From contig CP089276.1 in NCBI GenBank assembly GCA_023920165.1, forward strand, positions 4,030,001-4,094,000: DNA of 64,000 nt. Direction: 5' to 3'. Source of the stretch: Curvularia clavata (lineage: Eukaryota). Shown one piece after another: positions 15,584-45,044 of this stretch. The notes beneath the pieces were generated by a model. It did not search any database and was not told the DNA's origin. It saw nothing but the letters and a program-made list of their open reading frames with translations. How positions within the stretch are numbered: the stretch's first letter is position 1; the number at the start of each line of letters is the position of its first letter. The position numbers were made by a program, and so were the translations under genes.

Positions 15584-15891
15584 TTGATCTCTTACTCACC
15601 CCGCATTTGGGCCGCGTACGTGGGGGCAATGATGGCTGGAGTGATGTTGACGCGGAGCGCGCCGTGTTGGTGGAGCGAGCTTCAAACCAATCGTGTTGCA
15701 TCTTCTCCGCGGGGCAGGTACCACCATTCTCTTCGCTGCCAACATCTTCACTAGTGATACATCTACCACGCAAGCAAGACTCGTTATAACAAAGGCAGTA
15801 TATTAGGGTCTACGGAAATACTCGGTACAACTGGAAAAAGGTTGGATATAAATCTGGATGCTTAAAATGCCCACAAAAAAAAGACGAATGC

Positions 15892-17148
15892 TCAGATGGC
15901 CGCCTCCTCAGCTGTCCATTTGACCTCCTTGACACGGTCACCATTCAGAGTGGCAAGTCCACTCATACCTAGCATGAAATCTCTGCCCTTAAGCAGCCAA
16001 ACAACGAAACTCGGCAGTTTCCATCCCATGATTGCACCGACACCGCCGCCACTTCCAATCGGGACTATCATGGACTCTTTCGTCTCCAGCTTGAACTCCC
16101 GATCTTTTCCCTTGGGCTTCTCATAAGCATTTGCGGGGTTGAAAGAGAGCAAGTCGCGCTTGAGGTTGATGCCAAGAGCTGGCATACCACTCATGATATC
16201 CCAGACGATATTACGCGAATAGCTGGCGACATCGCCAAAACCATAGACGCGTGGGCCTGCTGCATCAACTCGAAGAGTGGATTCATTGGTAACAAGGAAG
16301 CCTCTGTCATTCAAAAGCTCCTTAGGAAGCCAAGAAGAGTTCGGTCGGACGCCGTAAGCGGGCACGAAGAGATCGGCCTCAAGCTTGTTGCCATTCCCGA
16401 GGACAACAACCGTCTGACCATCCTTATTAAGTGAGGAATCTGTCACACGTGTGTTGTAGATGACCTTCACACCAAGAGCATTGAGTTTGCGTTCTGCAGC
16501 TTCAGCAATGGCAGGGCGTAGACCAGGCAGGAGCTTCTGATCGGCTGTGATCAACGTAATCTCCACTTGGGGCTTGACTTTGCTGAAAAACCCCGGCTTG
16601 CCATTGCGATGCTCAGCGACTTCACCAGCAAATTCCACTGCCGTAGGACCACCTCCAACAATGACAATCTTCTTTGCTGCTGTAACCTTCTCGTTGGTCG
16701 AAGCGATGGAATCCAAAGTATCTTGAGCATCTCCACTCATGGAAAAGGCGGGATAGTATGTGCTGCTGCCTGTAGCAACAATCAAGGCATGATAGGTCAA
16801 AGCCTGGTCTTCGGCTCCTTTTTTGCTGCGATAAAGAACCCTTCGTGTTGAAGTCTCGAGGCCAGTTGCCGAAGCCTCAATGAATGTAAAGTCTTCCTGG
16901 GAGTACTGCTTGAACCCCTCGTGCAAGTCGAACATGACTTTCTCGGTCGACATACGACCTGTGGAAGCTGCTACTCGGGGCGACGCGAACCTATAGTACC
17001 ATTGCGAAGATGGCGAGATATTATAGACGTGGTATTTGGCGTCCTTTTTAGCTTTGAGCGTCGGCAGAATGTACCTCAGTATGTAATGGGTCGCTTGAAG
17101 ACCGGCGGCTGAGGCGCCGAGCACGACGATGTTGCGCTCTTCTGACAT
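15892..17148 (-). CDS. AMID/AIF-like FAD-dependent pyridine nucleotide-disulfide oxidoreductase
   Basis: Rossmann motifs IVVLGASAAG and IVIVGGGPTAVEFAGE, plus LIVATGS and YGFGD. Confidence 0.9.
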   Translation of the reverse strand: MSEERNIVVLGASAAGLQATHYILRYILPTLKAKKDAKYHVYNISPSSQWYYRFASPRVAASTGRMSTEKVMFDLHEGFKQYSQEDFTFIEASATGLETSTRRVLYRSKKGAEDQALTYHALIVATGSSTYYPAFSMSGDAQDTLDSIASTNEKVTAAKKIVIVGGGPTAVEFAGEVAEHRNGKPGFFSKVKPQVEITLITADQKLLPGLRPAIAEAAERKLNALGVKVIYNTRVTDSSLNKDGQTVVVLGNGNKLEADLFVPAYGVRPNSSWLPKELLNDRGFLVTNESTLRVDAAGPRVYGFGDVASYSRNIVWDIMSGMPALGINLKRDLLSFNPANAYEKPKGKDREFKLETKESMIVPIGSGGGVGAIMGWKLPSFVVWLLKGRDFMLGMSGLATLNGDRVKEVKWTAEEAAI

Positions 17149-17836
17149 GACTGATATTTGAATTTGATGAAATAGTAGATATCTTAAGAACGAAGAAAGG
17201 GAGAGATGTGAAGTACTGAGTGAATTGCAAGACGAGAATGCCTAGCTATACATATATTATTTCTGCATGAGGACTTGTTATCTTATCGCGGACTAATTTT
17301 GATACACTTCTGAACCTTGATTGCCATGTTAAAATGAATACTAATTCGCCGAAAAGCAAAACCTTGCGTAGAATGCTACAGTCGCGTCGGTCGCGATTGT
17401 GTCGCGAAAGATGACGAGGTTTGTAATGCGCGCCGGCAGCCGGATCCTGCAGCATCCGCATATTCGTAAGCATACCGACAAATCTCCAGCAGCTTTGATT
17501 GGCTGTAAACCCCCAGCCACAGCATTACGTGCCATAATTTCGATCGGAAACTGTCGTCCGCTTTGAAATAATCCAGAGGACACTAGCCTTGATTAGAAAA
17601 GAGAGTTTGGTGGATGGATTCGAGGTTGTACAAAGGTGCTTTGTTGCCAGTCTTCGTTGTCAGAGCACTTCGTTCCTTCAGCACCACTCTCGTGAGCGCC
17701 TTCAACTATGGGGCCCATGCGCATGAAAGTAAACAAAACCACATCTTCTCATTCTTCGTACTGCTCCTGATCAATTCACATCCCGTCCTCTTCCTGCAAC
17801 CACTTCCATGTTCGCTATCTTCTTTGTTTCCTTGTT

Positions 17837-20800
17837 TCACCAGGCTGTTTCCCCGTGCACGTTTTCTCTCTGCTGGTACTCGGTCCACTCGGTACCTAGG
17901 AGACCCAAACCGCCGGACGTATAGGCCAAACCCTGTGAGAAGTTGTTCTCAGAAGAAGAGAACACTCTCCGCTGCGCTTCCGCACCGAGTTGCTCGACCA
18001 GATCCTTCGCAGCTATTTGACCGTTATTTTCCGCAAACTCTCGGGCTCTGCGGATTTGTTCGCCTCCATCTGACAAAATATTAACGTCTCGATGAAAAAG
18101 CAAGAGAAGCATATCTATTCTTCCATGCTCTGCTGCAAACTCAAATGCAGTTCTCCCCAGATATTTACTTCCCGGCGCATTGATGTCTGCGCCGTGTTCG
18201 ATAAGCATTTCTGCAATGCGGATAGAGCCAGCCTTAGCAGCATATTGGAGAGCAGTTCCCCCCTCCCAGATGCAGGGCGAGCCATTGACATCAACCCCTT
18301 GCTCCAGAAGAAACTTGACAATTTCGAAATTACCCAGCTCAACGGCCAGCTGCAGAGCGGTGCGATTGATGCGAAGTATTGCACCGAAATTGAGATTTGC
18401 CCCTGCGTTGTGCAGAAGCTTGACCATGTCAAGATTTCCAGTTGATATTGCCTTCAACACAGCGTTCAATCTGCCTTTATTCGAAAACTCGACAGTGCTG
18501 TTAGGATTGCCGTCAGAATCCAGCAGAATTTGTACGACCTTGATATTCCCAGTGGCGATCCCTTTCCCAAGTAATGAAGGGAGGTACCGAGTCATAAAAC
18601 CGTCGTCCCTGAGGTACAATGTCATATTAACATCAACATGTCCTACGAGCATCCTGACCAGTATTTCGTCTTTGTTTTCGATCGCCTCGCGCAGCGCTGG
18701 AATGGCGAAGGTTTTATAACCATTAGGATATCGCTGGCAAAACGAAACAAGAATAGCTCTGGCCAATTTACAAGACTTCTTTGCAGCAGCTTGAAGTGCA
18801 CAGGGATCATTTGGATCCGCGCCATGGTCGAGCAGATACTGAACGAATTGTTCGTGACCACATTGAACTGCTTCTTGCAGAGGGGAGTTGTTGTTCATAG
18901 GAGAGGTGCCATCAATATCCGCTCCATTTTCGAGCAGGCACCGAGCAGTTTCGTGATCCCCCTGGCGAACGGCCTGTTCAAGAGGTGTCCGGATCTCCCA
19001 TCTGAATGACCGTAGTTGCAGAGGCCGAAGAGCAGTTCTTGCTCCACTGACACTAACACCGGCATCGATCAACAATCTTAGAATATCGCGATCGCCCCAG
19101 CGTACAGCGAGGTAAGCAATAGCTGTTTCAGATTCGGTTGAGTTGGTTGAATTGAGGAATAGCTCAAGAAGCCGGGCGTTGCGTGTCAGGATAGCGGCAG
19201 CAATACTAGTATAGTTTGGTCGTACTCCAGCCATCATGAGAAGCTCGACAATGTCATCGTTCCCCCCCAATGTAGCAGCAGCCACCAAAACTGGGAAGAA
19301 TGGGTCCCTCACTTCAAATTTCCCTATCCCCATCGCGAGGAACTCTTGGACTATATCCTTGTTTCCCACTTCAGCCGCCGCGAGAATTATGCTCCTAATA
19401 CACTCTGGGCTTATATATGCTTGTGATGGGCCGTAGCTTTTGAAAAGAGTGACTATCTCTTGACGTCCATATCTAATGGCTTCGGCAAATGGCGTAGTCG
19501 GGCAAGTTTCGAACGAATAGCCTTCCAATAGAGCTGAATCTACTGCTGAAGGGAAGATCCTCATAGGGCCTTTCCCTCCAAAATCCAACGAGAAACCTCC
19601 AGGGAAAAGGTCGTGGATTCCAACACCTAGTTGTATGTACCTCTCGACCAGTACGAGGTTGTTACCGTAAATCGCATTATAAAGACATGCCAAGTTCGGA
19701 GTCAAACCAGATTCCAGGCAATAGTCAACTAAGCTGATAATGCCCTGTTTGGAAGCAATCTCAAAAACGAATTTAAGATATTGCTCAGCGCCTTGGAGCT
19801 CTTCTTCGAGAGTGAGGCCTTGAAACGCTGACTGTAATACTGCAATGACCTTTTCGGCTCTGCAGAAGCCCAAAAAATCAGAAATTATGTTGATTGATGA
19901 GAAAGATTCACCGGCGAAGTCGATTGGAAGCTTGTTATACTGTATGTAGACATCTAGTACAGTTTCGCATCTCCAAAATCTAGAACTCTCCAGCATTCTT
20001 ATGGGAATTCTAGCCCGAGCTTCCAAGAGGTATCGTAGAATGCCGCTGTCTATTGGCGGGCCATTTACCCCAGATGACCAAGGGATGAGGCCAATAAGAA
20101 TATATATGGGACTGGAAGATGGATTCTGATGTATCGTCTGGTTAGGATTCGCACCTGCGTGTAACAAGATCTTCACAATTTCGAGACTACAAAACTTGCA
20201 TGCTAGACCGAGAGGCGTATATCGACGGCCACCAAAGCGGCAAGTGACCCGATTGATATCAAGACCTCTTCGTAATACTGCACTGACGAGGACTGGTATA
20301 TTAGACTTTATGGCGATGGTCAGGATGCTTTGCTGCAGCGCCGCGGCATACAGATGCGGTAGGGCGTCCAGGATATCTTCCATGTGAGCGACAGAAAATT
20401 GTCTGACCTGTTCAAATATGGTATCAAAGGCTGCATAGTCAGAGCCAGCGAAATTGTTCATAAGCAGATATAGTATCTGCTTCAATATGACCACATCCAC
20501 AGAGCTTCTCTGAAGTTCTTGACCGGGTTCGCCAGGGAGCAGATGCTTCGTTTGGTTGATTGAAGCGAGAATCTTCGATTGATTGTTTCTGAAAAGAGCA
20601 CGAAATCCACGGAAGAATGGTTTATTGAGATCCGTAAACAAAGAAATAGTGTTCTTGGGTATATAGAAAATATCCCGAAACTCTGCTATACCTGAAAAAG
20701 AGGTCGACGGGCTTCTTCGGATGGGCGTAACTAATGGCAATGTATCCGAGTGAGGAAAATGCGGGGACGTATCCCTGTGGAAGTTTGGTGTTGGGTGATC

Positions 20801-21468
20801 TGAAAACACTCTGTTGTAGAGATTATTGAGGTTGTTCGTTTGATAACAATTGTGACTTGATTCCAGATTCCAGGGTTCTTCAGGAATAAGTAAGTTGGTG
20901 GGAAAGTCTGTCGTTTGTGGGTCGTCCAAGTAGGTGCCTTGGGCTTCCAAGCTGACAATCGTCTCTTCCGCCTCATCTTGATACTGATTCTCTTGGTTCC
21001 CGTCCTCTTGATCTGATTGAACCTCAACGCCGGGAGGCAGTTCTCTCTTTAGACAGCACTCTCTATTCGTCTCACATTTCCTATAACGGGCTGTCTCTTT
21101 TCTCACTTTTTCATCGGCGAGGCATGTTCCATGGGCATACACGCGGCTGAAAAGCCCAGCCTCGTCTCGTTCCTCTATAATACGGCCTAAAGTATGCCAG
21201 GTTTCACGGGTCAATTTCTTCTTGAAACCCCATCGTATGAACTGAGATTCATATTGTGGTTTGCTTAGAAAAGTAGATATCAGCTTACAAATCACACAGA
21301 AGAATTTGTAGAGTCTCACCTTGCAGAGAAGCCTTTCAGTTTCATGAGTTCAATAACACCGCCTTCCCCCTTAAGGCTCTTGCCTTCAGACAAATAAAGA
21401 TTTTCGATCGTGTCTTTATGACTCTCCCATTTCGTTTGGGATATCCTGGGATGATTTTTTTTCGGCAT
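17837..21468 (-). CDS. Clr5-domain / ankyrin-repeat protein (about 1190 aa)
   Basis: Exon 1 (21468-21320) MPKKNHPRISQTKWESHKDTIENLYLSEGKSLKGEGGVIELMKLKGFSA, intron 21319-21264, then SKPQYESQFIRWGFKKKL. This matches the Clr5 pattern W..HK..I..LY..E..SL..V...M...F.AS..QY...F..WG..K. Many ankyrin repeats follow (TPLGLAC, TPLEQAV, SPLQEAV, TALQLAV, TALQYAA, TAFEFAAEHG). Confidence 0.9.
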
Positions 21469-21571
21469 GACTAAGATACAAATCGTAAGGTTGAGAAGAA
21501 AGAATTGGGGTAATGTCTTATAAGCTGCTGTTGAGAGGAAATCAAGCAGTGGTTAAATACCAGGTCGAGCA

Positions 21572-22283
21572 ACAGATTCTAGGAAACAGAATCTGGAAGA
21601 AGGGTTGGGAAACCAGAATCTGGAGTTGGGCATCCTAATCAACAATCCAGATTCTGGAATTCAAGCTTGGCGATTGGTTAGGCGTCTCTACGCAAGCCCT
21701 TCAGAGGTGCAAGGCTGAACCGTCCTCGCTTCACCGGTCTGCCCTCTGTCGTTTGATTCGAGCGGTAAACGCTGCATGCATCAGCCACAATGTGATATGC
21801 GCAACACGTTGCAGCTGAGTTGCATAGAAGCCATCCAGTAGACTAGACGCAAACCAGAATCTGGATTTCGCTACGGCTGCAGATTGTGGTGACGGCCTCA
21901 TTCAGTCTTGGATGCCACGTCGGTTCCACGTCAGCGGCCATACTCTCTGTCCTGAGTATGTCGGAGAGAATTGTTTTCGGCAGCACAACAATAACGTCTG
22001 TTACAGCTGAAACCATCGAGGTGGGTGCGTGTGAAGGGGTAGGTGGTTGATAGCTGATCTCTCGGAATGTCGGAATATCGGAAACGACTATCACTTCCCC
22101 TGTTACTCATGTCTATTCCAGAATCTGGATATTTGCAGAAATTGGTACAAATTCGAATATCAGATTCTGGAACAAAGCGGAATATGAGTATCACTACCAG
22201 ATTCTGGATATACTGCGCCACAAAACATGATGCGCAACGCCTTCATCGCTTACTCTGGGAAGAAAACCATGACCAGTTTCTGG
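21572..22283. promoter_or_regulatory. Array of palindromic CCAGA(A/T)TCTGG sites in a divergent intergenic region
   Basis: Perfect copies at 21613, 21647, 21854, 22118 and 22197. One-mismatch copies at 21586, 22160 and 22273. Two-mismatch copy at 21572. Confidence 0.85.
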
Positions 22284-22430
22284 TTTAGAGGTAAGTATCT
22301 AAATGGTGACCTCCATTGCTATTCTGAAGTCTTCACGGCACATACCCTCCATCAAGTGCGTGTTGTAACTACTCTAAATCCTTGAACAACACATAACATA
22401 ACATCTCCTTCTCGAATATCATTCAAAAAC

Positions 22431-22713
22431 ATGAGCAACTGGTCCCTCGAAGCGCGCATAGCCCTCATAGCTCTATTCGTGCAACCTACAATACCCGCCC
22501 TCGCTCTCTGCGCCAGGATAGCATGGCGAAAATGGTATCCTCGACGCGAAAGTAAGATTACTTGGACACAGCATGTGCAGCAACAAACTAACATGCTCAG
22601 CCGTCCCCCTGACGTTACTTCCACTACATCATCAGCGCCTCCCAACAGTGCTTCCGCTACCGCAATATCGAAGCCTCCTGACGAGAACATGGACACTGCA
22701 TACATATGTATAA
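22431..22713 (+). CDS. Small single-pass membrane protein (77 aa, spliced)
   Basis: AAACATG start. Exon 1 (22431-22551) MSNWSLEARIALIALFVQPTIPALALCARIAWRKWYPRRE has a hydrophobic helix followed by a basic patch. Canonical intron 22552-22600 (GTAAGA..CTAAC..CAG), exon 2 to TAA 22713. Probable 5'UTR intron 22291-22329 (GTAAGT..GCTAAT..AAG). Confidence 0.7.
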
Positions 22714-22807
22714 CCACATTGAAGGGAACCTGTAACAATACAAAACTGGGTTGGCGTCAATTATTTATACCAATTACAAAATACATTACATGCATCTCGT
22801 ATTACCA

Positions 22808-24067
22808 TTATCTCTTTCCCACAAAACGATCCTTGTCTACCAAAACCCCCCTTGCCATCTCCAACTGCTCATCCGTCTGAACAACCAGCGTCTTGTACCT
22901 TGCACCATCCGCAGTAATATCCGTGACGACATCTTCAACCTGCGCTTCATTCTTCTTCGCATCAACAGCGAAACCCAGACACTTGACGCCCTGCACCACT
23001 GCCTGCCTGAGCTTGGTACCCTTCTCTCCGATCCCTCCTGCAAAAACAAGGGCATCGACTTCTCCATCCAGCTTTGTAAAGTACGGACCGACGTAGTTGA
23101 GAATGCGGTCAACAAAGATGTTGAACGCAAGTTTGTCCTCGTGCCGATCCGAGGAGCTGATTTTGCCGAAGTCCGTGGTTCCTGTTAGACTCTTCCAGCC
23201 GCTTTGCTTGTTCAGGATCTCTTCGGCTTGGGTAATGTGCATCTTCTCGCTTGAGCTGTGCGACGGCTTTCCCGCGTTGTGCGTGTAGTGGAACATCAGT
23301 GATGGGTCGATAGAGCCCGAACGTGTGGCACCTGGTAGGCCAGCGAGAGGCGTCAAGCCCATGGTGGTGTCTAGAGACTTTCCGTTCTTGATGCAACATG
23401 CCGATGCTCCGGAGCCAAGATGCAGGGCAATAATGTTGACCTGATCGACTGGCTTCTTGAGATGCTCGGCTACAGCGTTGACGATGAATGAGTAGCTGAT
23501 ACCATGGAATCCGTATTTTCGAAGTTTGTTTCTTTGTGCCACTTTTTGATCAATGGGGTACGTGCATATGTAGTCGGGTAGCGTATTGTGGAATGAAGAG
23601 TCAAAGTAGGCAATGTTCTTAGCATGCGGCAAGGCCTCTGCTACTGCCCGGACAATGGTAAGGGCTGGGGCATTGTGAAGTGGCGCCAGATCAGAGAGCT
23701 CCTCAATGTGATGGTATGTTTCCTTGTCGATGACCTGACTTTTGGGATAATCTCCACCATGTACAACGCGATGGCACGTGAATCGAATGTCATCTGTGTG
23801 GTTCAGCTCTGTAAGGCCCTTGTCGTTGGTCAGGTGCTCGAGGATGTATCGAAACCCGTCTTCTTGGGATTTAACATTCTCTAGTTCTTTTCCTTTGATC
23901 TTCTCGTCGCCACGCTCATACTTAAGTTTCGCAGGCGGTGCGGTTAAGCCTTCGACTGTCGCTTCGGCCAGCTGGACGGGCACCAAGGAACCGTTTTCAG
24001 GTGTCTTGTATACCGATATCTTGACACTAGAAGACCCTGCGTTGATCGAAAGGATGATTTCCGGCAT
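22808..24067 (-). CDS. ackA: Acetate kinase
   Basis: Signatures ILSINAGSSSVK, HRVVHGG, LAPLHN, KYGFHGISY, HLGSGAS, TRSGSIDP and LVFAGGIGE. Confidence 0.97.
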   Translation of the reverse strand: MPEIILSINAGSSSVKISVYKTPENGSLVPVQLAEATVEGLTAPPAKLKYERGDEKIKGKELENVKSQEDGFRYILEHLTNDKGLTELNHTDDIRFTCHRVVHGGDYPKSQVIDKETYHHIEELSDLAPLHNAPALTIVRAVAEALPHAKNIAYFDSSFHNTLPDYICTYPIDQKVAQRNKLRKYGFHGISYSFIVNAVAEHLKKPVDQVNIIALHLGSGASACCIKNGKSLDTTMGLTPLAGLPGATRSGSIDPSLMFHYTHNAGKPSHSSSEKMHITQAEEILNKQSGWKSLTGTTDFGKISSSDRHEDKLAFNIFVDRILNYVGPYFTKLDGEVDALVFAGGIGEKGTKLRQAVVQGVKCLGFAVDAKKNEAQVEDVVTDITADGARYKTLVVQTDEQLEMARGVLVDKDRFVGKR

Positions 24068-24125
24068 GTTTGGTTACCTCCAGTAACTGTTTCAGATCGA
24101 GAGGCGACTTTTGGAGATCCCGATA

Positions 24126-24468
24126 TGACGTCAGTCGGTAATGGATAAGACGTCTCTAGGGGTGAGACGTTTCGAAAAAAGAAAAGAGAGATTTGGGTGT
24201 ATGGGACGCAACAAGGGAGGGAAGTCGTAGAAATTAGGCTTGCATTGAATGTGTACGTCTGGATCAGGCGTGCAGCGTCAGGTCGAATCACCGGAAGTCG
24301 CGGAGCTGCAGACCAACAATTTCTTTTCCCACTGAAGCTTGCACAGTTCAGGCTTCGTCATATGTGCGTTAATTTTGATACGTCTCCGCTGGCTGGACCC
24401 ATCCAATGCCGCATCTAGTGACCGCAACGTGCCGGGCCGACGCTGGTGAAGTCAATGCTATGACGTCA
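24126..24468. promoter_or_regulatory. Two perfect CRE palindromes TGACGTCA upstream of acetate kinase
   Basis: TGACGTCA at 24126-24133 and 24461-24468, the ATF/CREB bZIP consensus. Confidence 0.5.
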
Positions 24469-40763: not shown

Positions 40764-42859
40764 TCATGTTGCATCTGAAATCATATCCGTAGTGTCGTTG
40801 ACATTCAGGGAGAACTCGGCGTTCCAGTCTCGAGGTGGTAGATTGTATGCACACGCGCCGACTGGGTCCGCGCCATCGATCTTCGACGTAGTCGGATTGA
40901 ATATTGTCCAAAACTGGTAAGCCTCGTCAACTTCGGTAGCGACAGAAGGTGGCATCTGGTATTCGCATATACTACTCGTGTCCGATGTAGCCTGATGAAA
41001 CGACGGCGGCTGGAGGGTGGCTTTTTGCTCCAGGTACTCCAGGTACTCGGTCTTTACCGGCAATAACAATCGTTCGTACTCTTCGTAACATCTCCTCGCA
41101 GCAGACCATCGCTCTGAGATTGACAAGAAGCATTTTGAGAATACGTTCATCCAATCTTCCACTTGCTGCCAGGGATATTGGCGTGAGATTTCTCGTTTGC
41201 AACGTTGCAGCCCTTGGAGGAATATGAGGGCGCAGTTGAATACATGGTGACAGGGGTGGAACACGTATTTAATCTTCCCGGCCTCTGCTTCGGATTGTTG
41301 AAAGTAGCCATCGGCAACTTTGACGGCATTTACCACCGCGGCCATCATCTGCTCTTTGCTCGGGGCGGGTATTCGGCGTGAGGAGCGATTCAACAACGAC
41401 AAGATGTATGGGGTTGCGATGTCAGAGTACAAGCACATCTCGGTCCATCGTGCATTCAGGCTGCGGTCTTGGTTGGCATTGGCAGCAGCGTAAATCTCCT
41501 GTCGCCAGCTCGTTATATTCTGGACGCATTGCTGCATCCATTGATCCAGTGATGTGAATTCGTCGGGAACGGGATCGCCATGCCACAAAACCGAGATGAT
41601 ATCGGCTTCGATGAGGCGAAACCGACAAATGATGCGCTGAGTGAATTTTGATATCCGTCCAGTAGGCGATATACCACTCTGGCTAATGGCGGTGTCGTCC
41701 AACTCCAGCGGAAAGGCGACTTCTATGGACCGGATGGGCAAGCTTATAGGGCGTAGAAAGATGCAGCATACCCCAACTTCCATTTCCCATGCACACCAAA
41801 ATATACGACGTCGCATGTCACGCCCATATGCAGTGATTTTAGCATCGTTTGGCAGCTCTTGATGGAGACCGAGGTCAATGACTGCCTGACTGATCAGGCC
41901 TGTGAGAAGCCACAAGTCGGCCATCTTCGGGTTCAAGAAGATGTATTGACTCAACAGCAGAATGGCCTGCAACCCAGCAATGTCATTTGTCGCAACTTCT
42001 GGAATCCATTGCATGGCGTGCCGAACAAGCTGGAAGGCGAGATCGTTTGCCTTTCGCACATTGTTCCGTGCACTAGTGGTCAGAGAGATAGCCATGATGA
42101 TACAGACTATGTAGCGATTGCGGAACGAGTCTTCGCCTGCTTCTGGGATCGGGGCGTTCTTGTGGTAGACAGAGTGGAAAGCTGTCGTCACATCATTGCG
42201 ATGGTAGATTGGGTATTGTGTGATGACCCGATCGAGATAATTGCGCAGGAGCTTGTTTGCGCCAACCTCATCAGGCATGAGGTTATAGAACAAGCCTTTG
42301 GTCTGTTGAGGGTTCAGAATCGACCTTGGGTGGTTCTCGTCCAAATCATTGGACGGAACGGGACCCTTCTTTGAGGGTAGCCGTGTGCCCTTGATGACGC
42401 ACTGCAGAAAGGGCCGGGCCTTGCATACACCGAGAAATGGCGGCGTTATGTCCTCCATTACTTGGTTGACTAGGCTATCAGCAAAAGCACATTTCTCTGA
42501 ACGCCACTGCGGGACCTTTGCGTCAGAGACACTGGAGTCTGCAGGCGAAGGCATGGTGGCACTCGGATAAGGCAAGGAGCTCGCATTCGGCTGAGCATTT
42601 TGACTCTCCAACCTGGCGATATGGGCTTCCAGAAAGTCGGCGATGGATCGCGGAGCCTCCTGCTGGGTGGAAGAGTCGAATCCAACGCACTGTACGCCTG
42701 CATCGACGCAGCGCGTGCACGCTGGGACTTTTCCATCGCACTGGCCAAGTCAGTCAATATACAGACATATAAGGAGAATCCGGCATATACAGATAGTTTA
42801 CGTTTCCTGCAACGTGCGCAGGCAAGCACACGGCGGCGCACTTTAGTACGGTTCTGCAT
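40764..42859 (-). CDS. Zn(II)2Cys6 transcription factor with a fungal-specific TF domain (PPR1/UaY-like)
   Basis: ACARCRKRKLS|CDGKVPACTRCVDAGVQC across one intron. Middle homology region AVIDLGLHQE..RRRIFWCAW. Confidence 0.93.
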
Positions 42860-43232
42860 GGTGGAATGGGAGTGGCGTCAGACTTCTATACCACAACGAC
42901 GTGGCTTTCATGGCGCTGAACAAAGAGAAGGAGAGATAGAGGAACAGAGGAAAAAGGAGAAGAGAAGGCTGGATGGTGTTTCGTGGTCACTGAACGAGAT
43001 GCTAGCACACGAAGGCGCACGAGATGATGCAGCCCCCCGTTGATCGCTTCTGGTTCGGGACACGCTTACCAGATGCACTCGTCCCTCACTAGCCCCCATG
43101 GCCGCCTAGGCATCGCATCGCGTTCCGGATTTTGATTTATGGTGACGGGATAATAGACCCCAGCTTAAAGCCCATGTCTTGCTAGGACTTGATCCTTTCT
43201 TTCTGATCTTCGCATATCCCGACCCGACCGTC

Positions 43233-45044
43233 ATGGCGGCCACGGCCAGCGCCTGTTCCCCCACGCTCGATCTAGACGCGCTGATCCAGGTAACCCCAAA
43301 CGCCTCCACTTCTCAGGAGCGTGCACTCAACTTCCCCAGAGTCTCCCCGCATGCAAGCGATGCCGAGAATGTCGCCGTGGCTGTGATACACTGTTGCCAA
43401 AGTGCAGGTATGTTGTCTCGAGTTTTCACACAATACGCCTTCTGCTGACGCCCACAGGCAATGCACAAAAGCTGGCGTAGAGTGCATGTTCTACGACCAT
43501 GGGCGCAACGAATTACTGCCTCGAAGGTAAGCTGATATGCGTGTCATGGTGACTCTGGCTGACACATGGCTAGTTATATTAGCGGGCTTGTGGATCGTGT
43601 GCGGAGCCTGTCAACTGGGTATCCCTCGCCAGCTGCGTCGAGCGGTCCCATGAATAACACCATCTTCTGCACACAGGCAAAGAGAGACTCCCTCGCAGCA
43701 GAAGCCGTGCAGTATGAGCATCATTTTGCAGAGGCTGGAAACAGCTATCGTTATCTAGGCGCAGAGTCATGCTTGCTCAGGTCGCCTAGATTACATGTGG
43801 CGCCTGACATCCGCAGCGAGCAGATCGACGACGAGTTCGACAAGTGGCAGTTCATGAACAAAGACTCCGCTGAAAAGCAATACGAGCTCACGCAAATTTA
43901 CCTCGACATCGTCCAGCCCATCTATCCTATTTTGGAGCCTTCGCTGCGCTATCTTAAGCCCGATCTGCCCAGCGACCTTGATTCGACTGAGCTGTTTTCG
44001 TTGTACATGATTTATTCGATTGCATGTTACATACTCCCTAATACAGCAAAAAAGCAATCACACAGCCAAGGCTGGAATCCTTCAGGTAGGCTTGCATACC
44101 ATCAAGCCAATTCAATTAGATACCGTTCCTTGGCGACACAATATTTCGCAAAAGCTATGGAGCACCTGGATGCGGCAACTCTAGAGCCAAACATTGACAC
44201 GATCCGCTCGATCCTGCTCCTCGCCATCAACAGCTCATTCGACCCGTTGGCAGGCAATATTGGGCAGCAGCTTGCTCTCGCCGGGCGTTTAGCATTCGAT
44301 CTCGAGTCCAAAAACGCGCTTCAAGAACTGGAACCCAAGGACGTTGAAATGTTGCGTGCCATGCACATGACCATCTTCAGCCTCGAAAACCAAATTGCAT
44401 CAACGTTTGACCGACCAGCACTCTTCCCAGAGCCAGTAAGTCTTATCAGTCTACTCGACACCTTTCTTATGTACTTATAAAACCGTAGGAAACAGAGCTC
44501 TGCTTCGACAAAGACAAGCCCGCAGAATACATGTGCTCACTATTCCGCATGCAAAATCGTTTTCGCAAGGGCGATCACGTAACAAAAGAAAACATGAAGA
44601 AACTACTACCTCTCTTCGACGAAAAGGCCGAACTACCGCCCGTCATACGCATCATCCTACATATTACACATCTTCTGCTCAATCCCTGCTGGAGGAGCGC
44701 ATGGCACGTACTGTACGTCTCATCCACCTAATCTCCACAACGAACTCGCTACTAATCACCGCAATAGAAAGTCCGTAGTCAGCCACGGCACTCTCCATAT
44801 CTTCATCACTCCGTACTGGGTCTACTACGCCGCCACCGTCCTCATCGAAAACATGCCAGCGATATTTGGTGGAGACCTCATTCAGCTCTACTCCAATGCT
44901 CTGCTCGTTCTCGAACTCTCGTCTTGGAAGTGGCCGAGCTCAGCGGCCCTCTCGGCGTCGCTCACGGATCTCATGCAGCATATGAAGACGAAGTATCAGC
45001 CGGATTGGTCGGATAGGCTGCAGCCTGGCGGTGTAAGGATATGA
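43233..45044 (+). CDS. Zn(II)2Cys6 transcription factor (multi-exon)
   Basis: The zinc cluster is visible only after splicing. Intron 43290-43339, then SLPACKRCRECRRGCDTLLPKCR|QCTKAGVECMFYDHG..PRSYISGLVDRV. Also YRYLGAES and IFSLENQIASTFDRP. Confidence 0.88.

What the first reader, a model, noticed from the sequence alone, without database searches (positions are those of the whole stretch)
17837..22713. Candidate undescribed module: Clr5-ankyrin protein and a divergent membrane microprotein sharing an operator-rich region
Seen: a head-to-head pair (ATGs at 21468 and 22431) sits between two metabolic genes (AMID-like and acetate kinase). One gene encodes an N-terminal Clr5 domain and a long ankyrin array. 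The other encodes a 77-aa single-TM protein that is apparent only after splicing. The 960 nt between them hold about 9 copies of one palindrome. Known: Clr5 was named for an S. pombe silencing factor and is considered a putative DNA-binding domain, and ankyrin arrays serve as ligand sensors in fungal NLR-like proteins. Inference: a one-component system in which the Clr5 domain binds the palindromes, the ankyrins sense a signal, and the output is the small membrane peptide. Possible roles are defence, allorecognition or toxin-antitoxin-like control. I am not aware of this architecture being described, but I could not search the literature.
Basis: partly seen in the sequence, partly recalled or inferred. 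Interest (0 to 1): 0.85.

Follow-up and report, generated by a model that had tools for sequence, protein, structure and literature searches.

The report
Palindrome-rich promoter between two fungal genes
In a plant-associated fungus, an uncharacterised ankyrin-repeat gene and a tiny unannotated membrane-protein gene point away from each other across a short stretch of DNA packed with eight to ten copies of one 11-letter palindrome, which looks like a shared on/off switch whose binding protein is still unknown.

Summary
The window is Curvularia clavata: a 100% hit names the 1191-aa protein 'hypothetical protein yc1106_05088'. That protein carries a Clr5 domain and ankyrin repeats, and no NACHT or NB-ARC domain. 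Its 56-nt intron is cut out in RNA-like contigs of a close relative.

CCAGAWTCTGG occurs 8 times with at most 1 mismatch in the 64 kb, and all 8 lie at 21586-22283. Chance gives 1.37. The copies form two clusters, one upstream of each ATG.

The 77-aa spliced small gene is probably real. Both exons are conserved, in the spliced frame, with a 97-aa metagenomic protein. Its intron has a rare canonical signature. One homologue sits on a contig of exactly the same length (16,991 nt) as an ankyrin homologue. The gene is unannotated, and the RNA contigs over it are unspliced.

Nothing shows that the Clr5 domain binds the palindrome. Its model is a three-helix, HTH-like bundle, but only at noise-level Z. 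More distant Clr5-ankyrin relatives (26-36% identical) lack both the motif and the partner gene.

Best reading: a co-regulated divergent gene pair with an array of sites for an unidentified dimeric factor. Self-regulation by the Clr5-ankyrin protein is a minority possibility.

The parts
17837..21263 (-). Exon 2 of the Clr5-ankyrin gene (residues 50-1191, stop included). It holds the C-terminal part of the Clr5 domain, a variable linker, a conserved block at residues ~250-400, a hypervariable zone at ~425-700 and a conserved C-terminal ankyrin array.
   Evidence: Translation. 100% match to P0003. Pfam ankyrin families. Conservation profile.
21264..21319 (-). 56-nt intron (GT..AG) inside the Clr5 domain
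   Evidence: Contigs of runs X1 and X5 (two studies) join 21263 to 21320 and skip 56 nt. The spliced product equals P0003.
21320..21468 (-). Exon 1 of the Clr5-ankyrin gene (ATG at 21468; the N-terminal 49 codons plus 2 nt of the Clr5 domain)
   Evidence: Pfam Clr5 E 1.9e-8 on the exon alone and 3.5e-15 on P0003.
21469..22430 (.). 962-nt shared upstream region (putative bidirectional promoter). No contig of the four runs laid covers 21594-22166.
21572..21657 (.). Left cluster of palindrome copies: 21572 (2 mismatches), 21586 (1 mismatch), 21613 and 21647 (exact). It lies 105-190 nt upstream of the Clr5-ankyrin ATG and is partly a 14-nt tandem array. The mRNA-like contigs of a relative end at 21592/21593, inside it.
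21854..21889 (.). Central copies: 21854-21864 (exact) and a weak one at 21879-21889 (2 mismatches; may be chance)
22118..22283 (.). Right cluster of palindrome copies: 22118 (exact), 22160 (1 mismatch), 22197 (exact), 22273 (1 mismatch). It lies 148-313 nt upstream of the small gene's ATG.
22431..22551 (+). Exon 1 of the small gene (40 codons + 1 nt). It carries the conserved N-terminus MSNWSLEARI..., a hydrophobic span and a basic RKW flank.
   Evidence: phmmer hits P0029 (E 7.5e-7) and P0030 (E 3.1e-6) against 1.84 billion proteins. Alignment. Hydropathy.
22552..22600 (+). 49-nt intron GTAAGA...ACTAAC...CAG of the small gene
   Evidence: A strict intron pattern matches only 2 places in the window, both strands searched, and this is one of them; 0.48 are expected. 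It is needed to bring exon 2 into the conserved frame. It is not cut out in the contigs of X1 and X5.
22601..22713 (+). Exon 2 of the small gene (37 residues counting the junction codon, plus stop), a Leu/Pro/Thr-rich tail ending ...TRTWTLHTYV
   Evidence: 13 of 33 residues identical to the C-terminus of P0030, without gaps, E 1e-6 pairwise. tblastn gives two HSPs in different frames, joint E 2.5e-13.
22808..24067 (-). Acetate kinase gene, convergent with the small gene. Its transcript probably overlaps the small gene in antisense.
   Evidence: Pfam. The X5 contig 22380-24223 (1849 nt) is unspliced over 22552-22600.

Best explanation
This is a conserved, divergently transcribed gene pair of Pleosporales fungi. 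One gene encodes a fast-evolving 1191-aa Clr5-domain/ankyrin-repeat protein. The other encodes an unannotated 77-aa single-pass membrane protein. They share a 962-nt bidirectional promoter.

The promoter carries 8 strong and up to 2 weak copies of the 11-bp palindrome (A)CCAGA-W-TCTGG(A). Four lie 105-190 nt upstream of one ATG, four lie 148-313 nt upstream of the other, and one or two lie in between.

The most likely mechanism (inferred, not shown) has three parts. The palindromes are binding sites for a dimeric sequence-specific DNA-binding factor. That factor switches both genes together. The high copy number gives cooperative, switch-like control.

The identity of the factor is open. The Clr5-ankyrin protein is one candidate, but no more than that.

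Shown: both gene models, the motif array and its non-randomness, expression and splicing of the Clr5-ankyrin gene in a close relative, and protein-level conservation of the small gene.

Inferred: that the motifs are protein-binding sites, that the two genes are co-regulated, and the membrane topology (N-terminus out, basic tail in the cytosol, from the positive-inside rule).
For: Motif array.
- 8 of 8 window-wide matches with at most 1 mismatch fall within 700 nt of the intergenic DNA, against 1.37 expected. 0 of 100 shuffles reach 8.
- There are 5 exact copies.
- It is the top repeated 9-mer per kb and the only multi-copy 5-N-5 palindrome in 64 kb.
- Only the 11-13-nt core is shared between most copies. 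That is the pattern of selected binding sites rather than of a dispersed repeat.
- The sites sit symmetrically before both ATGs.

Clr5-ankyrin gene. P0003 is 100% identical and Pfam confirms the domains. RNA-like contigs from two studies of a 93-97% similar organism have the intron removed and end at 21592/21593.

Small gene.
- Database-wide significant hits to exon 1.
- Substitutions among the three sequences are mostly conservative: S/T, I/V/L, R/K, W/Y, F/L.
- Exon 2 is conserved only in the spliced frame.
- The intron signature is rare.
- A is at -3 of the ATG.

Linkage elsewhere. P0032 and P0016 both lie on a single ENA contig of 16,991 nt.

No known RNA family fits the region: the best Rfam hit scores 21.3 bits against a gathering score of 70.
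Against: - No binding, expression change or regulon has been observed.
- No whole genome was held, so I could not ask whether the motif marks other promoters.
- No orthologous intergenic DNA could be fetched, so conservation of the sites is untested.
- Part of the left cluster is a 14-nt tandem array, so some copies may come from recent duplication rather than selection.
- The contigs over the small gene in X1 and X5 are continuous with acetate kinase and keep the 49-nt intron. Transcription and splicing of the small gene itself are therefore not shown. That stretch could be only the acetate-kinase 3'UTR.
- The small gene is absent from every annotated genome in the protein collection. Only 2 clusters, both from metagenome or Logan contigs, were found among 60 candidates.
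- For the contigs of P0030 (18,166 nt) and P0029 (up to 3,545 nt), no ankyrin homologue with a matching contig length was found. That is 0 of 26 hits and 0 of 85 hits, with proteins of 567-626 aa not examined.
Confidence: 0.55

Rival explanations
1. One reading: a self-contained one-component cassette. The Clr5 domain of the ankyrin protein binds the palindromes as a dimer. The ankyrin array senses a ligand or protein. The outputs are its own gene and the membrane micro-protein.
For: The array sits in front of the gene for a protein with a domain tied to gene repression in S. pombe (passages). The AlphaFold model of residues 1-118 (pLDDT 76.5) has a three-helix core at residues 10-64. Most of the 50 structural matches listed for that core are HTH, winged-helix or Myb DNA-binding domains: GcrA DBD Z 5.6, ArgR Z 5.3, c-Myb R2 Z 4.5. 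The N-terminal 115-119 residues carry a net charge of +8 to +12 in 7 of 7 homologues. No match with at most 1 mismatch lies elsewhere in the 64 kb, as expected for a local circuit. DNA-binding domain plus ankyrin repeats is a known transcription-factor design in fungi (Swi4/Mbp1, TOXE; recalled).
Against: All Z values are below the tool's own noise threshold of 8, and Foldseek found nothing at E <= 0.001. No Clr5 domain has been shown to bind DNA in anything I could read, and the original Clr5 paper was not held. The putative recognition helix is invariant in 7 of 7 aligned proteins down to 29% identity, which argues for a shared ligand rather than locus-specific motifs. L001, L003 and L004 (36-26% identical relatives; a Clr5 exon was found in L001 and L003) have 0 motif matches with at most 1 mismatch, no other palindrome array and no small-ORF homologue. 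L001 has only 106 nt upstream.
Confidence: 0.17
2. The two products are physical partners, whatever binds the DNA. The micro-protein's ~40-residue cytosolic tail docks on the ankyrin solenoid and tethers or sequesters the Clr5-ankyrin protein at a membrane. The shared promoter serves to keep their amounts matched. This can hold together with the best explanation.
For: The pairing is divergent and probably conserved. Ankyrin grooves commonly bind extended peptides (established knowledge). The tail has a conserved C-terminal motif, (T/A)RTWT(L/F)x(T)(Y/F)V. The ankyrin protein has a hypervariable central zone, while the micro-protein is also only 39-60% identical between relatives.
Against: There is no direct evidence. 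Gene neighbourhood alone is weak.
Confidence: 0.12
3. The small ORF is not a gene. The stretch 22380-22807 is only the 3'UTR of acetate kinase, and the palindromes serve the Clr5-ankyrin gene alone or are functionless products of local duplication.
For: Contigs of X1 and X5 run without a joint from acetate kinase across the ORF, with the intron kept. The X5 contig (1849 nt, 22380-24223) has the size of a single acetate-kinase mRNA. The ORF is unannotated in the window's own genome and in all NCBI genomes of the collection. Part of the left cluster is tandem.
Against: Hits to exon 1 are significant against 1.84 billion proteins and the substitutions are conservative. Exon 2 is conserved only after removing a canonical 49-nt intron. 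Four motif copies sit on the small gene's side, 640-810 nt from the Clr5-ankyrin ATG. Contigs drop rare forms and carry no strand, so they cannot exclude a spliced plus-strand RNA (tool text).
Confidence: 0.15

Closest known systems
S. pombe Clr5 (silencing factor; founder of Pfam PF14420)
   Same: It has the same N-terminal Clr5 domain (E 3.5e-15, full profile). [quoted passage not shown]
   Different: No cognate DNA motif, ankyrin array, partner micro-protein or site array is reported in the passages I read. The original paper was not held. No member from a filamentous fungus is functionally characterised in the 5 papers that mention 'Clr5 domain' or the 1 that mentions PF14420.
Fungal transcription factors that combine a DNA-binding domain with ankyrin repeats: Swi4/Mbp1 (APSES + ANK) and TOXE of Cochliobolus carbonum (bZIP-like basic region + ANK, binding the 'tox-box' in HC-toxin gene promoters). 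Recalled, not checked in a call.
   Same: They combine an N-terminal small DNA-binding module with C-terminal ankyrin repeats. TOXE is from the same family of fungi (Pleosporaceae) and acts on a short repeated promoter motif.
   Different: The DNA-binding domain here would be Clr5, which is unproven. The motif is unrelated. The ankyrin array is far longer: the ankyrin-like solenoid runs from about residue 300 to 1150, against 4 repeats in TOXE.
Bidirectional fungal promoters with homotypic site clusters for a pathway-specific regulator: GAL1-GAL10 (Gal4), niiA-niaD (NirA), the qa cluster (QA-1F). Recalled.
   Same: A divergent pair about 1 kb apart with several copies of one palindromic site shared by both genes.
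   Different: 8-10 copies is unusually dense. The motif has no CGG/CCG half-sites, so it is not a typical Zn2Cys6 site. The genes are not metabolic and there is no cluster context: the neighbours are housekeeping genes.
Fungal NLR/STAND proteins with ankyrin repeats
   Same: A long, fast-evolving ankyrin array. Parts of it are replaced between two close relatives.
   Different: There is no NACHT, NB-ARC or other NTPase domain. An NLR survey of Sordariales excluded an orthogroup that held Clr5 and ankyrin domains, because its architecture did not fit an NLR (passage).

Membership tests
Clr5 domain proteins (Pfam PF14420) | Match to the Clr5 profile above the gathering score | tested here: met
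   P0003 residues 11-65: E 3.5e-15, 56.3 bits against a cut-off of 22.3, profile positions 2-54 of 54. Exon 1 alone: 34.7 bits.
Ankyrin-repeat proteins | Several ankyrin repeats above the gathering score | tested here: met
   Ank_2 E 2.3e-58, Ank E 8.8e-53 with 6 stretches.
Fungal NLR / STAND receptors | A central NACHT or NB-ARC NTPase domain between the N-terminal domain and the repeats | tested here: not met
   No such family at E <= 1 in P0001 or P0003.
Helix-turn-helix / Myb-like DNA-binding domains | A fold match clearly above background to solved HTH domains | tested here: inconclusive
   The model has pLDDT 76.5. VIA-align best Z is 5.6 (GcrA DBD, rmsd 2.1 over 48 residues), and only 4 chains reach Z >= 5. 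The tool states that Z under 8 may be only a common arrangement. Foldseek gives nothing at E <= 0.001. No PDB sequence match at E <= 1.
Sequence-specific transcription factor with an autoregulated site array (one-component-like) | The protein binds the repeated motif in its own promoter | not testable with these tools
   This needs EMSA, DAP-seq or ChIP. The only indirect tests were the 0 motif matches at three distant paralogous loci and the invariant helix 3.
Toxin-antitoxin-like or allorecognition (het) pair | A toxic product neutralised by its partner, or polymorphic alleles that trigger incompatibility | not tested
   There are no population data and no toxicity assay. No HET, HeLo or other death-domain family was found. 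The PADLOC library was not searched, as the organism is a eukaryote.
Single-pass membrane micro-proteins | One hydrophobic span of about 19 or more residues with a flanking charge bias | tested here: met
   Kyte-Doolittle 19-residue maximum is 2.09 (window) and 2.36 (P0030), at residues 10-28. RKWYPRRE follows the span. No dedicated TM predictor was available.

The most novel reading that the evidence does not exclude
A self-regulating two-gene cassette of Pleosporales. The Clr5 domain would be a previously unrecognised sequence-specific DNA-binding fold that reads CCAGA-W-TCTGG as a dimer. The hypervariable ankyrin solenoid would be its sensor, and the small membrane protein its effector or membrane tether. 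This would give Clr5 domains, which are widespread and uncharacterised in filamentous fungi, their first molecular function and their first cognate DNA site.
Probability: 0.15. Interest if true: 0.7.

Novelty: new member of a known kind. Interest (0 to 1): 0.4.

Why it matters
Clr5-domain proteins are common in filamentous fungi, yet none is functionally characterised in the papers I could find. This locus offers an unusually clean handle. It has a dense array of one palindrome, two clear targets and a candidate binder next door. A single EMSA, DAP-seq or one-hybrid experiment could therefore name the factor and, if it is the Clr5 domain, assign that domain a function.

The locus also adds a conserved but unannotated 77-aa membrane protein to the gene set of Curvularia and its relatives. 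If the palindrome turns out to bind an ordinary, unrelated transcription factor, the locus is simply a nicely built bidirectional promoter.

Tried and rejected
- Whole genome of the window: none is held, so no genome-wide motif scan was possible.
- RNA evidence: no RNA holder is listed on record. The runs were labelled 'RNA?' as a guess. I treat X1 and X5 as RNA for two reasons: the 56-nt intron is removed, and the contig ends fit mRNA ends. X9 and X10 gave only short, low-depth, 100%-identical pieces, which were uninformative. No contig covers 21594-22166.
- Metagenome scan with the ankyrin alignment: 7 loci, all distant (26-41% identical) or short. Orthologous intergenic DNA was therefore never seen.
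- Third protein search (shorter proteins, 85 hits): no fragment on a contig of 18,166 or 3,545 nt, so no second linkage case.
- ESM Atlas for P0030: only unnamed small Ascomycota clusters at 0.92-0.93, a score that shuffled proteins reach 4-10 times in 100. No lead.
- Pfam on exon 1, P0029 and P0030: 0 families.
- Literature search for the motif strings: of the 872 papers holding a term, the 25 listed are about unrelated subjects (none on a fungal promoter motif), so the matches are most likely primers or constructs.
- From memory I compared the motif with HSE, STRE, Mcm1, PacC, Ace2/Swi5, FacB/Cat8 (TCC-N8-10-GGA), Zap1 ZRE, WCC, CSL and grainyhead sites. None fits. These comparisons are recalled, not tested.
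- Rfam: only mir-2208 at 21.3 bits against 70, caused by two complementary motif copies. Rejected.
- Reading the motif as a coded peptide repeat: the copies fall in different frames of the 73-aa ORF at 22067-22288. Rejected.
- Complex prediction of P0016 with P0032: not folded by a rule of the tool. There is no verdict and I did not pursue it.
- Earlier findings of the scan: nothing relevant.
- The original Clr5 paper (Hansen et al. 2011) is not held.

Full report
WHAT IS THERE

The window is fungal. The long minus-strand gene gives a 1191-aa product once a 56-nt GT..AG intron is removed (exon 1 21468-21320, intron 21319-21264, exon 2 21263-17837). It is 100% identical to a database protein named 'hypothetical protein yc1106_05088 [Curvularia clavata]' / 'Clr5 domain-containing protein' (P0003).

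Pfam on P0003 gives a full-length Clr5 domain (PF14420, residues 11-65, E 3.5e-15, 56.3 bits against a cut-off of 22.3). It also gives strong ankyrin families (Ank_2 E 2.3e-58). At E <= 1 it finds only ankyrin-type families and a sub-threshold DUF3447 match, so there is no NACHT or NB-ARC domain.

The neighbours are a Pyr_redox_2 (AIF/AMID-type) oxidoreductase at 15892-17148(-) and acetate kinase at 22808-24067(-). The rest of the window carries housekeeping-type genes: F-box, isochorismatase, U3 snoRNP, cofilin-type, Cid1 poly(A) polymerase, kinase, and two Fungal_trans proteins at 40.7-44.5 kb. There is no biosynthetic-cluster context.

THE PALINDROME ARRAY

CCAGAWTCTGG has 5 exact copies and 8 copies with at most 1 mismatch in the 64 kb. 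All 8 lie between 21586 and 22283. Dinucleotide-preserving shuffles give 1.37 +/- 1.02, and 0 of 100 reach 8.

Allowing 2 mismatches gives 34 hits, 10 of them in the intergenic DNA. The two extra copies (21572, 21879) are weak, and one or both may be chance.

A blind scan finds no other 5-N-5 palindrome with 3 or more copies per kb in the window. CAGAATCTG (7 per kb) is the most repeated non-simple 9-mer.

Most copies share only a 13-nt core, ACCAGAWTCTGGA. The stretch 21571-21624 is partly a 14-nt tandem array.

The layout is symmetric:
- four sites 105-190 nt upstream of the Clr5-ankyrin ATG;
- four sites 148-313 nt upstream of the small gene's ATG;
- one strong site in the middle.

No Rfam family fits. 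The copies fall in different reading frames, so this is a DNA-level element.

EXPRESSION

Two runs from two studies (X1, X5), from an organism 93-97% similar to the window, hold contigs whose ends match mRNA ends of the flanking genes. In these contigs the 56-nt intron is cut out (joint 21263->21320). The runs are labelled RNA only as a guess, but these features show spliced RNA.

The Clr5-ankyrin contigs end at 21593 (X1) and 21592 (X5). That is about 125 nt upstream of the ATG and inside the left site cluster.

On the other side, contigs start at 22167 (X1) and 22380 (X5). They run without a joint through the small gene into acetate kinase. The 49-nt intron of the small gene is therefore not removed in the dominant form.

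The X5 contig (1849 nt, 22380-24223) has the size of one acetate-kinase mRNA with a 428-nt 3'UTR. So the cover over the small gene may be antisense. Contigs carry no strand and drop rare forms, so this neither shows nor excludes a spliced small-gene mRNA.

THE SMALL GENE

The gene model is exon 1 22431-22551, intron 22552-22600 (GTAAGA...ACTAAC...CAG) and exon 2 22601-22713, giving 77 aa.

A phmmer search of the unspliced 149-aa ORF against 1.84 billion representatives found 3 proteins at E <= 0.001:
- P0029 (49 aa, E 7.5e-7), matching residues 1-43;
- P0030 (97 aa, E 3.1e-6), matching residues 1-46;
- one low-complexity hit that I set aside.

The differences in the three-way alignment are mostly conservative replacements.

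The C-terminus of P0030 aligns with the window's exon 2 only in the spliced frame: 13 of 33 residues identical, no gaps, E 1e-6. tblastn gives two HSPs in different frames, joint E 2.5e-13.

A strict intron pattern occurs only twice in the window on both strands (0.48 expected), and one occurrence is this intron.

The hydrophobic span (Kyte-Doolittle 19-residue maximum 2.09) is followed by RKWYPRRE. This fits a single-pass protein with a cytosolic tail of about 40 residues.

I put the gene at about 0.8-0.85 likely to be real. It is unannotated. A profile search over proteins of 22-170 aa found only P0030 and P0029 among 60 candidates, and neither comes from an annotated genome. Pfam and the ESM Atlas give no family.

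IS THE PAIRING CONSERVED?

Orthologous DNA could not be fetched. One indirect case exists. P0032 is 97% identical to P0030. P0016 is an ankyrin homologue, 46% identical to the window's protein over 56% of the query region. Each is recorded on a single ENA contig of exactly 16,991 nt. That they share one contig is an inference from the equal length.

For the contigs of P0030 (18,166 nt) and P0029 (up to 3,545 nt), no ankyrin homologue with a matching contig length appeared. That is 0 of 26 hits and 0 of 85 hits, with proteins of 567-626 aa unexamined.

Seven JGI metagenome loci were returned. The three useful ones are L001 (36% identical, only 106 nt upstream) and L003 and L004 (26%). They have no motif match with at most 1 mismatch, no other palindrome array and no small-ORF homologue. 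These are distant relatives, not orthologues.

DOES THE CLR5 DOMAIN BIND THE PALINDROME?

This is unknown. An AlphaFold model of residues 1-118 was built from a 7-sequence alignment (pLDDT 76.5). It has helices at 11-27, 38-44 and 51-61, followed by a helix, a hairpin and a helix.

Foldseek found nothing at E <= 0.001. VIA-align against 48,161 chains gave a best Z of 5.6 (GcrA DNA-binding domain). Next came ArgR, PadR-type, Myb, transposase and sigma-54 HTH domains at Z 4-5.3. The list is dominated by DNA-binding three-helix domains, but every value is below the tool's own noise threshold of 8.

No solved structure matches by sequence. The N-terminal region is basic in 7 of 7 homologues, with net charge +8 to +12.

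Against a locus-specific reader: the third helix and its surroundings (P52 Q53 Y54 F58 W61 G62 F63 K65) are invariant in all 7 aligned proteins, down to 29% identity. That suggests a ligand common to the family.

[quoted passage not shown] The original paper was not held. Filamentous-fungal Clr5 proteins are mentioned only as annotations.

EVOLUTION OF THE ANKYRIN PROTEIN

The nearest homologues in other genera (Bipolaris, Exserohilum, Pyrenophora) are only 44-53% identical.

Between the window and the organism of X1/X5:
- window 19388-20140 (residues ~425-675) and 18905-19059 are replaced by unlike sequence of similar length;
- 18582-18693 is diverged;
- the flanking oxidoreductase differs at 49 of 1464 positions, and the acetate-kinase contig at 60 of 2339.

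The same zone is the least conserved in the 12-sequence alignment (residues 501-550: identity 0.11). Residues 301-400 and 1051-1150 are the best conserved, at 0.63-0.73. This is a fast-evolving central surface on a conserved scaffold. Whether it reflects diversifying selection was not tested.

VERDICT

There is a real, probably conserved, divergent pair with a striking shared site array. That much is best explained as co-regulation by a dimeric DNA-binding factor (confidence 0.55). That the factor is the Clr5-ankyrin protein itself is possible (about 0.15-0.2) but has no direct support and two weak counter-indications. Defence, allorecognition and toxin-antitoxin roles are pure speculation, and the protein is not an NLR.

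In kind, this is a bidirectional promoter with a homotypic site cluster, which is a known design. It has an undescribed motif, an uncharacterised domain family and a new unannotated micro-protein. The interest is moderate. It would rise sharply if the binding experiment named the Clr5 domain.

Noticed in passing
window 18582-20140 (residues ~425-900 of the ankyrin protein): Segments of the ankyrin gene are replaced by unlike sequence of similar length between the window and a 93-97% similar organism: 19388-20140, 18905-19059 and 18582-18693. The flanking genes differ by only 2.6-3.3%. The same zone is least conserved among 12 homologues. It may be a hypervariable recognition surface or the result of repeat shuffling.
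   Followed up: partly
window 22380-22807: Acetate kinase and the small gene are convergent, with stop codons 94 nt apart. An mRNA-sized contig (22380-24223) covers the small gene unspliced. The acetate-kinase 3'UTR therefore probably overlaps the small gene in antisense, which could itself influence its expression.
   Followed up: partly
window 21784-21810 and 22217-22243: A second shared element lies in the intergenic DNA: two 27-nt copies, 70% alike, with the core GATGCGCAAC. One sits on each side of the centre. It may be a second factor's site or chance.
   Followed up: no
window 21571-21624: The left site cluster is partly a degenerate 14-nt tandem array (4 copies, 63% matches). The 5' ends of the relative's mRNA contigs (21592/21593) lie inside it, so two sites would be in or at the start of the 5'UTR.
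   Followed up: partly
window 15757-21593: In run X5 a single 5837-nt contig joins the oxidoreductase gene and the Clr5-ankyrin gene, both on the minus strand. This suggests read-through or overlapping UTRs across 17149-17836. In run X1 they are separate contigs.
   Followed up: no
P0030 residues 37-59: The 97-aa metagenomic homologue has about 21-23 extra residues exactly where the window has its intron. The insert begins with VR and ends with Q, as a retained in-frame GTAAGA...CAG intron would read. The prokaryote-style gene call may therefore have read through an intron. This was inferred from the protein only.
   Followed up: no
window 40767-44477: Two ORFs with the fungal-specific transcription factor domain (PF04082) lie about 20 kb away: 40767-42749(-) and 43563-44477(+). 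Nothing links them to the palindrome.
   Followed up: no
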